From a virus (Duplodnaviria > Heunggongvirae > Uroviricota > Caudoviricetes), in the IMG/VR virus record IMGVR_UViG_2880412407_000011: DNA of 64,000 bases. One strand, given 5' to 3'. The position numbers were made by a program. Of this stretch, positions 43,401 to 46,400 are shown piece after piece; the first letter of the stretch is position 1, and each line of letters starts with the position of its first letter.

Positions 43401-46400
43401 GACTGATTACCACGATGGTTACGCAGGGCTATGAGTATCGTCGTGATGACGATATGGCGTTATGGAGTTCTGCAGATCTGACTTATTCCATTACATACGA
43501 GATGTGAGGACGATATGGCAACACCAAATCCCCTTGAGCCGGTAAAAGGTGCCGGTACCACTCTGTGGGTTTACAACGGCAAGGGTGATGCTTATGCAAA
43601 CCCGTTGTCAGACGATGACTGGCAGCGACTGGCTAAGGTGAAGGATCTGACGCCGGGCGAGATGACGGCAGAACCCTACGATGATAACTACCTGGATGAT
43701 GAAGACGCGGACTGGACCGCGACCGGGCAGGGGCAGAAGTCTGCAGGAGATACCAGTTTTACGCTGGCCTGGAAACCGGGAGAAGAAGGTCAGAAAGGGC
43801 TTATAGGCTGGTTTGAAAGCGGGGATGTGCGGGCCTATAAAATCCGTTTCCCAAATGGCACGGTGGATGTGTTCCGTGGCTGGGTCAGCAGTATCGGTAA
43901 GGCCGTGACGGCGAAAGAAGTGATCACCCGCACGGTGAAAGTGACCAACGTGGGCAAACCTTCTGTAGCGGAAGAACGCAGCAAAATTACGCCGGTCACT
44001 GCGATTAAGGTGACGCCGACATCCGGTACGGTGGCAAAAGGGAAAACAACCACCCTGACGGTTTCTTTTGAGCCGGAAAGTGCAACCGACAAGACGTTCA
44101 GAGCGGTTTCCGCCGATCCGTCGAAAGCCACCATTAGTGTGAAAGATATGACAATTACGGTAAACGGCGTGGCGACAGGTAAGGTGCAGATCCCTGTGGT
44201 GAGCGGAAATGGTCAGTTCGCCGCAGTGGCTGAAGTCACCGTTACTGAAGCGGGCGCTGCAGGGTAAACGGAGGTAATACATGTTTCTGAAAACAGAACA
44301 ATTTGAATATAACGGTGTGTCCGTCACGCTTTCCGAATTGTCTGCGCTGCAGCGGTTTGATTATATAAAGTTTGTTTCAGACGCAGAACAACAGGAGACA
44401 ACGAAGCATGATGTCGTGCACATTAACCAGCGATATCTGGAAACGGCATCCCTGCTTGTGGCGATGTCGCTATGGCATTCCCATTCCCTCAAAGGCACTC
44501 TGGCCTCTCCGGAGACAGAGATGCAGCAGATCCGCCGTGAAGTGATGCTGGGATGGCCTGCTGATGCACTGAATCAGGCAACGAACCGGGTGCTTTATCT
44601 TTCAGGTATGCTGGATAACCGGCACGATGCCGATCCTGAACAAACCGGGAAAGCAGAAGCGACTGAGCCGGTAACATCAAAAAAGCATTCGAAGGCGAGC
44701 TGAACTTTGTCCTGAAACTGGCGCGAGAGATGGGGAGACCCGACTGGCGCGCCATGCTGGCCGGGATGACATCCACCGAATATGCCGACTGGCGACGTTT
44801 TTACTGCACGCATTATTTTCAGGATACCCAACTGGACGCTCATTTTTCCGGGCTGATGTACGCCGTACTCAGCCTGTTTTTTGGCGATCCGGATATGCAT
44901 CCGGCGGATTTCAGTCTGCTTGCTCCAGCGTGTGAGGAAGAGCAGACGGAGATGCCGGACGAGGAAGAAATGCTGATGCAGAAAGCGACAGGAGTTGCCG
45001 GAGGCGTCCGGTTCGGAGGGGACGGAGGGCGCGATATTTCACCTTCTGCGGATGTGGTGGATGTCAGCGAGGATGATGTTGCATTAATGATGGCTTCAGC
45101 GGGGATTTCCGGAGGTGTGAGATATGTCCCAGCCAGCGGGTGATCTGGTTATTGATTTGAGTCTGGATGCGGCCCGGTTTGATGAACAGATGGCCCGGGT
45201 ACGCCGTCATTTTTCCAGTCTGGAGGCGGATGCCAGAAAAACCGCCAGTACTGTTGAACAGGGGCTGAGCCGACAGGCGCTGGCTGCACAAAAAGCCGGG
45301 ATATCAGTCGGACAGTATAAGGCTGCCATGCGCACACTGCCCGCACAGTTCACGGATATTGTCACTCAGCTTGCCGGTGGTCAGAATCCCTTCCTTATCA
45401 TGCTGCAGCAGGGGGGCAGATCAGCGATTCATTCGGTGGACCGCTCAGCCTGCTTACCCTGCTGAAGGAGGAACTTCTCGGGATCAGGGATGCCTCTGAA
45501 TCATCAGAGGAGTCGCTGTCAGATACGGCAAATGCACTGGCTGAAAATGCCCGGAATGCCGGTGAGCTGGGACGATTTATGTCGGTGGCCCGTGTGGCGG
45601 CAGGTGGCGGGGTTGCCGTACTGGCCGCGCTTGCTGCCGCCGCCTGGCAGGCAGAGCAGGCTGACCGGGCCTTATTGCGTTCACTGATCCTGACCGGAGG
45701 GGCGGCTGCCACCACAACGGCAGAATTGTGGAAAATGGCCGGGGTGATCAGCGATGAAGCCGGTGGTGGTATCAGACAGGCGGCAGAAAATCTGGCCCGT
45801 CTGGCAGAAAGCGGGAAATATACCGCCGGGCAGCTACGGATCATGGGGAAACCTCTCAGAGATGGCTGCAGACGGTGGGGGACGATGCCGGGAAGGTGGA
45901 AAAAGCCTTTGAAGGGATTGCAGCAGATCCGGTGAAGGCGCTGGCCTCCCTGAATCAGCAGTATAACTTCCTGAGCGTTTCCCAGTTACGCCATATTGAT
46001 GAGCTTGAGCGCACGAAAGGTAAACAGGCTGCGGTGACGGAGGCGATGTCCCTGTTTGCGGATGTCATGAATGCACGTCTGGAGCAACTTGATAAAGCGG
46101 CCACGCCGGTGGAAAAAATCTGGGACGATGTTAAAACCTGGACTTCTGACGCATGGGCATGGATAGGTGATCATACACTGGGGCACTCAGTCTGATCACT
46201 GACGTGGTGGCCGGAACCGTTGAACAAGTGAAGCTGCTGCTTGTGCAGGGGATCTGGCGCTGGCTGAATTTATTCAGTCAGCCTGGGAAACGACAAAGAA
46301 TGTGCCCGGCGTTGGTGCGTTGTTTGGTGAACTGGCAGAAGAGAACCGCGTATTTATTGAGAAAACAAAACGCGATGAACTGGCGCTGAGAAAATCCATT

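What the first reader, a model, noticed from the sequence alone, without database searches (positions are those of the whole stretch)
44679..44685. Candidate -1 programmed frameshift site for the G-T tail chaperone fusion
The G reading frame contains A_AAA_AAG with AAA and AAG as zero-frame codons. The -1 frame is open from just upstream of this heptamer into the T-specific sequence (...KKAFEGELNFVLKLAREMGRPDW). An upstream GGGAAAG heptamer would lead to a stop after a few codons and is therefore not the site.
Basis: partly seen in the sequence, partly recalled or inferred. Interest (0 to 1): 0.25.

Follow-up and report, generated by a model that had tools for sequence, protein, structure and literature searches.

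The report
Lambda-type G-T tail chaperone frameshift site
The A AAA AAG heptamer is in phase at the 3' end of a lambda-like prophage gene G and matches the position of phage lambda's proven G-T ribosomal frameshift site, so it is a correct but ordinary, textbook feature.

Summary
Bases 44679-44685 read AAAAAAG, in X_XXY_YYZ phase with ORF G (44281..44703). It is the only in-phase heptamer in G. It lies inside the 11-codon stretch where a -1 shift gives a G-T fusion.

The fused 287-aa product, join(44281..44685,44685..45143), matches lambda gpG (PF06894, TIGR01674) and then gpT (PF06223, TIGR01715). The T profile starts 11 residues upstream of the ATG that annotation pipelines use.

In a DNA alignment the heptamer lies column for column on lambda's G GGA AAG site. 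All 72 other copies of this G allele that I scored, 88-100% identical in protein, keep AAAAAAG. Lambda-type alleles have GGGAAAG. Seven phi80-, Fels-1- and cdtI-type phages have GGAAAAG. A_AAG is invariant across all of them.

No upstream SD-like sequence, downstream hairpin or Rfam element is present, as with the lambda sequence.

The best explanation is low-level -1 ribosomal frameshifting by tRNA-Lys that makes gpGT alongside abundant gpG. No experiment on this allele was found.

One caveat: the window carries 15 one-base deletions relative to a near-identical reference genome. These break the portal, protease, U, H and L genes. The A6 run is unaffected.

Interest is low.

The parts
43515..44267 (+). 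Major tail tube gene V (upstream neighbour)
   Evidence: Pfam PF16461 Lambda tail tube protein, E 1e-68, plus a Big_2 domain. Annotated as phage tail protein in NZ_CP027454.1.
44281..44703 (+). Gene G, tail assembly chaperone, zero-frame product of 140 aa
   Evidence: ORF and translation. PF06894 E 4e-34. TIGR01674 phage_lambda_G equivalog, 117.6 bits against a cut-off of 74.45. The exact protein is named 'phage tail assembly chaperone G' in public sources.
44647..44653 (+). Decoy GGGAAAG, not a slip site
   Evidence: Its phase is GGG_AAA_G, and the -1 frame from here stops at 44664-44666.
44664..44666 (+). Last stop codon (TGA) in the -1 frame, the 5' limit of the productive shift stretch
   Evidence: List of -1-frame stops.
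44679..44685 (+). Slippery heptamer A_AAA_AAG, the proposed -1 frameshift site
   Evidence: In phase. Aligns with lambda GGGAAAG. Invariant in all 72 other copies of this allele that could be scored. The A_AAG core is invariant in the distant homologues examined.
44685..45143 (+). T segment read in the -1 frame after the shift. GT = join(44281..44685,44685..45143), 287 aa
   Evidence: Translation. PF06223. TIGR01715 phage_lam_T equivalog, 197.6 bits, covering GT residues 140-249 = profile positions 1-110 of 111.
44701..44703 (+). G stop codon (TGA), the 3' limit of the productive shift stretch
44730..44732 (+). ATG used by annotation pipelines as the start of a separate 'T' CDS; probably not a real start
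   Evidence: PGAP annotates T at the equivalent position. The T family profile begins 11 residues upstream. This Met is Phe in phi80, mEp237, mEp213, Fels-1, cdtI, the Providencia phage and the Enterobacter phage.
45124..47730 (+). Tape measure gene H (downstream neighbour), broken in the window by six 1-base deletions
   Evidence: PF06791 on the first fragment. Alignment with the intact gene of NZ_CP027454.1.

Best explanation
This is the -1 programmed ribosomal frameshift site of the lambda-type tail assembly chaperone pair G/GT in a lambdoid E. coli prophage.

Most ribosomes translate G to its stop at 44701 and make the 140-aa chaperone gpG. A small fraction slips back one base. This happens when AAA (44680-82) is in the P site and AAG (44683-85) is in the A site, and the two tRNA-Lys re-pair with AAA-AAA. 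Those ribosomes then read GCA at 44685 and continue to 45143. The product is the 287-aa fusion ...EPVTSKK-AFEGELNF..., which is gpGT.

By analogy with lambda, the G parts coat the tape measure protein H. The T part recruits the tube protein V. The low GT:G ratio matters for correct tail assembly. Neither protein ends up in the virion.

Shown here: the sequence, the phase, the frames, the homology, the positional equivalence and the conservation. Inferred: that shifting really occurs, how efficient it is, and what the proteins do.
For: - In-phase A_AAA_AAG, the only such heptamer in G, inside the 11-codon productive stretch. Chance is about 0.004 for a top-class heptamer.
- The fused product matches gpG and then gpT at equivalog level.
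- The gene order is V-G-T-H, as in lambda.
- In the DNA alignment the heptamer lies exactly on lambda's GGGAAAG.
- All 72 other scorable copies of this allele have AAAAAAG: 70 IMG/VR loci, VT1-Sakai and an O121 chromosome. At least four nearby positions vary among them.
- Lambda-type alleles have GGGAAAG. Seven more distant phages have GGAAAAG. A_AAG with AAG as a zero-frame codon is therefore invariant down to 31% overall identity.
- The -1-frame peptide between the heptamer and the annotated ATG is conserved: KKAFEGELNFVLKLARE here against GKVFDGELSFALKLARE in lambda. The ATG itself is not conserved.
- Literature: lambda G-T frameshifting gives a 30:1 ratio that is crucial for tail assembly and is widely conserved. 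[quoted passage not shown]
Against: - No experiment on this allele was found. No record I retrieved annotates the slippage. PGAP and the VT1-Sakai record list G and T as separate CDS. The fused sequence is absent from a collection of about 15 billion proteins.
- No stimulatory element is detectable. The 50 nt downstream fold less well than shuffles (z = +2.2), and the 90-nt fold has z = -1.96. There is no SD-like sequence in the 20 nt upstream and no Rfam family at the site. The efficiency may therefore be low. For V_VVA_AAG without a stimulator, PMC4066793 reports about 0.3%, and up to 3.7% depending on the 3' context.
- If the 15 one-base deletions in the window are real rather than assembly errors, the prophage cannot build tails and the site would be an unused relic in this particular genome.
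Confidence: 0.9

Rival explanations
1. Transcriptional slippage. RNA polymerase adds one A in the A6 run. Ordinary translation of the edited mRNA (TCA AAA AAA GCA TTC) then yields exactly the same GT protein.
For: The site is a homopolymer. An inserted A gives ...SKKAFE..., the same sequence as the frameshift product (derived from the sequence). A junction peptide therefore cannot tell the two mechanisms apart.
Against: The homologous sites in lambda (GGGAAAG) and in the phi80 type (GGAAAAG) have only three or four A's yet sit at the same position in the same phase. What is conserved is the codon phase of A_AAG. That matters for tRNA re-pairing and not for polymerase stuttering. From my own knowledge, productive slippage by E. 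coli RNA polymerase generally needs runs of about 8-9 or more A/T.
Confidence: 0.03
2. T is an independent protein initiated at ATG 44730, as PGAP and older records annotate it. No frameshift is then needed.
For: An ATG-initiated ORF of 137 aa exists at 44730..45143. It is annotated as 'phage tail assembly protein T' in RefSeq genomes.
Against: The TIGR01715 T profile begins at GT residue 140, which is 11 residues before that Met. The -1-frame peptide upstream of the ATG is conserved with lambda and with distant phages. The Met is Phe in the seven phi80-, Fels-1- and cdtI-type homologues, so the start codon is not conserved. The only purine-rich stretch (GAGAG) abuts the ATG directly, which leaves no usual SD spacing (sequence).
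Confidence: 0.03
3. Assembly artefact. The frame change between G and T is just another homopolymer miscall in a window that is full of them.
For: The window carries 15 one-base deletions and no insertions relative to NZ_CP027454.1 over 13 kb. Most are in G or T runs and one is in an A8 run.
Against: The 44200-45200 region is 100% identical to ten listed complete genomes. All 72 other scorable copies of the allele have exactly A6G and the same -1 frame relation. Lambda and every distant homologue examined also need a -1 shift at this point.
Confidence: 0.01
4. The site is genuine in kind but idle here. The prophage in this genome is defective, so the frameshift signal is an unused relic.
For: If they are real, the one-base deletions break portal (3), protease (3), U (1), H (6) and L (1). 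In the near-identical O121 prophage the antiterminator gene is split by IS3 elements.
Against: The differences are all deletions, mostly in homopolymers. There is not a single substitution in the first 10 kb of the alignment (window 38207-48352). That is the signature of sequencing error, not of decay. G and T themselves are intact.
Confidence: 0.15

Closest known systems
Bacteriophage lambda G / G-T tail assembly chaperone frameshift (G_GGA_AAG; Levin, Hendrix and Casjens 1993; Xu, Hendrix and Duda 2004, 2013, 2014, as cited in PMC5009743)
   Same: Same gene order V-G-T-H. Same two protein families at equivalog level. Same -1 direction. The slip site is at the same alignment columns, 16 nt before the G stop. 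The A-site codon is AAG in both. No detectable downstream structure in either sequence.
   Different: The P-site part of the heptamer is A_AAA instead of G_GGA, so the junction reads S-K-K-A instead of A-G-K-V. The G domain is only about 43% identical to lambda G, while the T part is about 81% identical, which indicates a mosaic. This allele has not been tested experimentally.
phi80 / mEp237 / mEp213 / Fels-1 / cdtI-type G-T sites (GGAAAAG, annotated as the -1 PRF site in phage LLS)
   Same: Homologous G and T proteins. Same position and same A_AAG A-site core.
   Different: Those heptamers are non-canonical (G_GAA_AAG). The P-site tRNA-Glu would re-pair imperfectly. The window's heptamer is fully canonical.
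E. coli O157 Sakai prophage Sp9 ECs1801 tail assembly chaperone (cluster A_AAA_AAG_25, marked [true], in PMC4066793 Table S4)
   Same: Same heptamer A_AAA_AAG at the very end of a tail chaperone gene, with a longer -1 product.
   Different: This chaperone shows no detectable similarity to the window's G (blastp E = 1.2). It is an independent family and not this gene.
E. coli dnaX gamma/tau frameshift (A_AAA_AAG)
   Same: Identical heptamer and the same tRNA-Lys slippage (PMC5009743).
   Different: From my own knowledge, dnaX has an upstream SD-like stimulator and a downstream stem-loop and shifts at about 50%. Neither kind of stimulator is found here. From the same source, the dnaX -1 product is shorter than the zero-frame product. 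Here it is longer.

Membership tests
Lambda-type G/GT tail assembly chaperone with -1 PRF | The upstream ORF is a gpG-family chaperone | tested here: met
   PF06894 E 4.3e-34, residues 1-123. TIGR01674 equivalog, 117.6 bits against a cut-off of 74.45.
Lambda-type G/GT tail assembly chaperone with -1 PRF | The downstream sequence in the -1 frame is a gpT-family domain | tested here: met
   PF06223 E 3.3e-11. TIGR01715 equivalog, 197.6 bits against a cut-off of 77.35, profile positions 1-110 of 111. The frame relation is -1.
Lambda-type G/GT tail assembly chaperone with -1 PRF | Location between the major tail tube gene and the tape measure gene | tested here: met
   V (PF16461) lies upstream and H (PF06791) downstream. 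The PGAP annotation of the identical region agrees.
Lambda-type G/GT tail assembly chaperone with -1 PRF | An in-phase slippery heptamer within the G/T overlap, near the G stop | tested here: met
   A_AAA_AAG at 44679-44685, 16 nt before the G stop. It is the only in-phase heptamer in G.
Lambda-type G/GT tail assembly chaperone with -1 PRF | The slip site is positionally homologous to lambda's proven site and conserved in relatives | tested here: met
   Alignment A2. 72 of 72 other scorable copies of this allele have AAAAAAG. A_AAG is invariant in the distant homologues examined.
Lambda-type G/GT tail assembly chaperone with -1 PRF | T has no independent, conserved translation start | tested here: met
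   The T profile starts 11 residues upstream of ATG 44730. That Met is replaced by Phe in seven homologues.
Lambda-type G/GT tail assembly chaperone with -1 PRF | The GT fusion protein is actually made at a few per cent of G and is required for tail assembly | not testable with these tools
   This needs a reporter assay, a western blot, mass spectrometry or genetics. Only the lambda data are available, as cited in PMC5009743.
dnaX-type stimulated A_AAA_AAG frameshift | An upstream SD-like stimulator about 6-17 nt from the heptamer | tested here: not met
   The upstream 20 nt are GCGACTGAGCCGGTAACATC, with no GGAG/AGGA/GAGG-type motif.
dnaX-type stimulated A_AAA_AAG frameshift | A stable hairpin or pseudoknot starting about 5-9 nt downstream | tested here: not met
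   The 50 nt downstream have MFE -6.1 kcal/mol, z = +2.2 against shuffles. The only good local stem (44719-44754) starts 34 nt downstream. No Rfam hit lies at the site, although the same scan detects two ALIL pseudoknots elsewhere in the window.

The most novel reading that the evidence does not exclude
At one homologous slip site, the lambda-type G genes carry three natural P-site variants: G_GGA_AAG, A_AAA_AAG and G_GAA_AAG. The A_AAA_AAG allele, widespread in prophages of Shiga-toxin-producing E. coli, might set a measurably different G:GT ratio from lambda's, or might add a transcriptional-slippage component through its A6 run. In that case the heptamer would have co-evolved with the highly diverged G domain (about 43% identity to lambda G) in order to keep tail assembly balanced.
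Probability: 0.15. Interest if true: 0.3.

Novelty: already known. Interest (0 to 1): 0.08.

Why it matters
It matters mainly for annotation. In the RefSeq (PGAP) genome and the older phage record that I examined, G and a truncated 'T' are listed as separate genes. The real second product, the 287-aa GT fusion, is missing from a protein collection of about 15 billion sequences. Recognising join(44281..44685,44685..45143) corrects this.

Biologically it adds nothing new to the well-studied lambda paradigm. It does show that the same slip position tolerates three different P-site triplets while A_AAG stays fixed.

Tried and rejected
- Downstream stimulator. I folded 90 nt (z = -1.96) and 50 nt (z = +2.2) downstream of the site. 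The lambda 50 nt behave alike (z = +2.08). The nine homologues tested scatter around zero. No conserved hairpin sits at a functional distance, so this was rejected.
- Known RNA element. A scan of the whole window against Rfam found nothing at the site.
- Prior literature on this exact site. I suspected that cluster A_AAA_AAG_25 (ECs1801) of Sharma et al. was this gene. I fetched Sakai prophage Sp9 and found that ECs1801 is an unrelated chaperone that happens to use the same heptamer.
- Xu et al. 2004 (Mol Cell) is not held in the paper library. I could not check whether VT1-Sakai-type sites are listed there.
- The genome-contig scan with the fused protein returned only one locus, from E. albertii, with a GGGAAAG allele. 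The comparative survey therefore rests on IMG/VR and GenBank phages.
- Assembly-error explanation for the G/T frame change: considered because of the many indels in the window, and rejected.
- Colinearity of the whole window with the O121 genome. Only about 28.5-51 kb of the window matches it. The early region is a different mosaic. I did not pursue this.

Full report
**Observation.** The window reads ...GTA ACA TCA AAA AAG CAT TCG AAG GCG AGC TGA at 44671-44703. ORF G runs from 44281 to 44703 and encodes 140 aa ending ...EPVTSKKHSKAS. Position 44680 is the first base of a G codon, so 44679-44685 is A_AAA_AAG in the X_XXY_YYZ phase needed for tandem -1 slippage.

The -1 frame has a TGA at 44664-44666. 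It is then open from 44667 to the TGA at 45141-45143 and reads AGNIKKAFEGELNFVLKLAREMGRPDW.... A -1 shift is productive only between 44667 and the G stop at 44701, which gives 11 in-phase positions. AAAAAAG is the only in-phase XXXYYYZ there, and indeed in the whole of G.

The upstream GGGAAAG (44647-44653) is in phase GGG_AAA_G, and its -1 frame closes at 44664.

**Chance.** AAAAAAG is common in this window: 34 copies on both strands against 13 expected. The motif alone therefore proves nothing. From the window's own + strand frequencies, the chance of any XXXYYYZ at one of the 11 productive positions is about 0.06. The chance of one of the three most shift-prone E. coli heptamers (C/A/G_VVA_AAG) is about 0.004.

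**What the genes are.**
- The conceptual fusion join(44281..44685,44685..45143), 287 aa, matches Pfam PF06894 (lambda tail assembly chaperone G, E 4e-34, residues 1-123) and PF06223 (minor tail protein T).
- It also matches the NCBIfam equivalogs TIGR01674 phage_lambda_G (residues 1-135) and TIGR01715 phage_lam_T (residues 140-249 = profile positions 1-110 of 111). Both score well above their cut-offs.
- Upstream lies the lambda-type tail tube gene V (PF16461). Downstream lie the tape measure gene H (PF06791) and gene M (PF05939).
- The region 44200-45200 is 100% identical to several complete E. coli chromosomes, including O121:H19 strains, and 99.6-99.8% identical to Stx1a-converting phages. 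It is about 95% identical to VT1-Sakai, where the genes are named G and T 'similar to bacteriophage lambda'.

**Positional homology and conservation.** In a DNA alignment with lambda (J02459) and VT1-Sakai, TCAAAAAAGCATTCGAAGG lies column for column on lambda's TGCGGGAAAGTGTTCGACGG. The heptamer thus replaces lambda's G_GGA_AAG at the same place, and the G stop TGA is aligned too.

I fetched 79 IMG/VR loci, one E. albertii locus, VT1-Sakai, lambda and an O121 chromosome, and scored each for frame relation and in-phase heptamers.
- All 72 other scorable copies of this G allele (88-100% protein identity) require a -1 shift and carry AAAAAAG in phase.
- Flanking positions do vary among them (CCG/TCG, ACT/ACA, GCA/GCG, GGC/GGT).
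- The lambda-like alleles (G about 43-49% identical, T about 81-93%) carry GGGAAAG.
- All 185 GenBank phage records hit by tblastn with the fused protein match in two pieces, as expected for a frame change.
- Seven more distant phages have GGAAAAG (zero frame G_GAA_AAG) at the equivalent spot. They are phi80, mEp237, mEp213, Fels-1, cdtI, a Providencia phage and an Enterobacter phage. The record of phage LLS annotates this motif as a -1 PRF site.

Across the family the A-site tetramer A_AAG is therefore invariant. The P-site triplet is GGA, AAA or GAA.

**T is not a separate gene.** PGAP and older records start 'T' at ATG 44730. Three results argue against that start.
- The T profile begins 11 residues upstream of that Met.
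- The -1-frame peptide between the heptamer and the ATG is conserved: KKAFEGELNFVLKLARE here, GKVFDGELSFALKLARE in lambda, GKALASELKFVLNLARE in phi80.
- The Met is Phe in the phi80-, Fels-1- and cdtI-type homologues.

Conserved coding thus begins at the slip site.

**Stimulators.** None was detected.
- The 50 nt downstream fold worse than shuffled sequence (z = +2.2). The lambda 50 nt behave the same (z = +2.08).
- A 90-nt fold gives z = -1.96. Its only good local stem starts 34 nt downstream, within a strongly conserved peptide.
- The 20 nt upstream contain no SD-like motif.
- Rfam finds nothing at the site, although the same scan detects two ALIL frameshift pseudoknots of IS3-family elements elsewhere in the window.

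**Mechanism.** According to the reviews I read, lambda uses low-level -1 frameshifting to make gpG and gpGT at about 30:1. That ratio is crucial for tail assembly. G binds the tape measure protein and T binds the tube protein (PMC5009743). A_AAA_AAG, G_GGA_AAG and C_CCA_AAG are the most shift-prone heptamers in E. coli. This is because its single tRNA-Lys (mnm5s2UUU) pairs better with AAA than with AAG. Without stimulators they shift at about 0.3%, and at up to 3.7% depending on the 3' context (PMC4066793).

The most likely mechanism here is the same tandem or A-site tRNA-Lys slip, giving ...TSKK-AFEGE.... The sequence features are shown. The shift itself, its efficiency and the protein functions are inferred from homology.

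**Rivals.**
- Transcriptional slippage on A6 would give an identical protein. It is disfavoured because the lambda-type and phi80-type homologues keep the phase of A_AAG but not a long A run.
- Independent initiation of T is disfavoured for the three reasons given above.
- An assembly artefact deserved attention. Relative to NZ_CP027454.1 the window carries 15 one-base deletions in 13 kb and no insertions. Most are in G or T runs and one is in an A8 run. They break portal, protease, U, H (six times) and L. The G-T region, however, is identical to the reference genomes, and A6G is present in every relative.
- Whether the prophage is functional in the source strain depends on whether those deletions are real. 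Their pattern, with no substitutions over the first 10 kb of the alignment, points to sequencing error.

**Comparison and novelty.** This is a member of the lambda G/GT family by every sequence-level criterion tested. Only the experimental criterion is untestable here.

The use of A_AAA_AAG for a tail chaperone frameshift in E. coli prophages is already catalogued (cluster A_AAA_AAG_25, ECs1801, PMC4066793 Table S4). I checked that ECs1801 is an unrelated chaperone family, so it is a parallel case and not the same gene.

The feature is textbook biology. Its practical value is in correcting annotation, because the GT fusion is absent from protein databases. Interest is low.

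Noticed in passing
window 38410, 38686, 38728, 39075, 39382, 39987, 43201, 45411, 45845, 46180, 46248, 46427, 47297, 48352, 50166: There are 15 one-base deletions and no insertions relative to E. coli 2014C-4423 (NZ_CP027454.1), in sequence that has no substitutions over window 38207-48352. Most are in G, T or A homopolymers. They split the portal, S49 protease, U, tape measure H (six times) and L genes. This looks like homopolymer under-calling in the source assembly rather than real pseudogenes.
   Followed up: partly
L054 1590-1600 (IMGVR_UViG_2869970738_000006): A relative has a 31-nt deletion (ATCAAAAAAGCATTCGAAGGCGAGCTGAACT) flanked by AAC microhomology. It removes the slippery heptamer and the G stop and fuses G to T in frame. 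That prophage would make only GT and no free G, which by the lambda precedent should be defective for tail assembly.
   Followed up: partly
L084-L090 (phi80, mEp237, mEp213, Fels-1, cdtI, Providencia PSTCR8lys, Enterobacter MStein-2023a): Distant G-T homologues carry GGAAAAG (G_GAA_AAG) at the homologous slip position. This is not a canonical XXXYYYZ heptamer. Only the A_AAG tetramer is shared with lambda and with this window.
   Followed up: partly
L057-L059, L065, L066 (position equivalent to window 44664): In some relatives ACT is ACA. This removes the -1-frame TGA and lengthens the open overlap to 61 nt, so that it includes the upstream GGGAAAG. Phase alone then excludes that heptamer.
   Followed up: no
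window 9561-10870 (-) and 55971-57280 (+): Two inverted copies of an IS3-family element, each with an ALIL frameshift pseudoknot (Rfam RF01497, 120 bits) at 10419-10535 and 56306-56422. These are other, structure-stimulated -1 PRF signals in the same window.
   Followed up: no
window 4429-4627, 15318-15369, 22603-22777, 27071-27320, 28093-28265: Rfam hits typical of a lambdoid prophage and its surroundings: IS009 sRNA, DicF, sok antitoxin RNA, two tRNAs upstream of the lysis region, and STnc100.
   Followed up: no
window, whole: AAAAAAG occurs 34 times on both strands against 13 expected from dinucleotide shuffles. None of 100 shuffles reached 34.
   Followed up: no
L092 20002-20681 (E. coli Sakai prophage Sp9, ECs_1801/ECs_1802): An unrelated tail assembly chaperone ends ...AGA AAA AAG TAG, with in-phase A_AAA_AAG directly before its stop and a 109-codon open -1 frame. 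The same heptamer has apparently been adopted independently.
   Followed up: partly
window 1-28500 compared with L093: The early region of the window's prophage is not colinear with the O121 genome that matches its late region perfectly, so the element is a mosaic. In that O121 genome the prophage sits beside a truncated tRNA-dihydrouridine synthase gene, and its antiterminator gene is split by IS3 elements.
   Followed up: no
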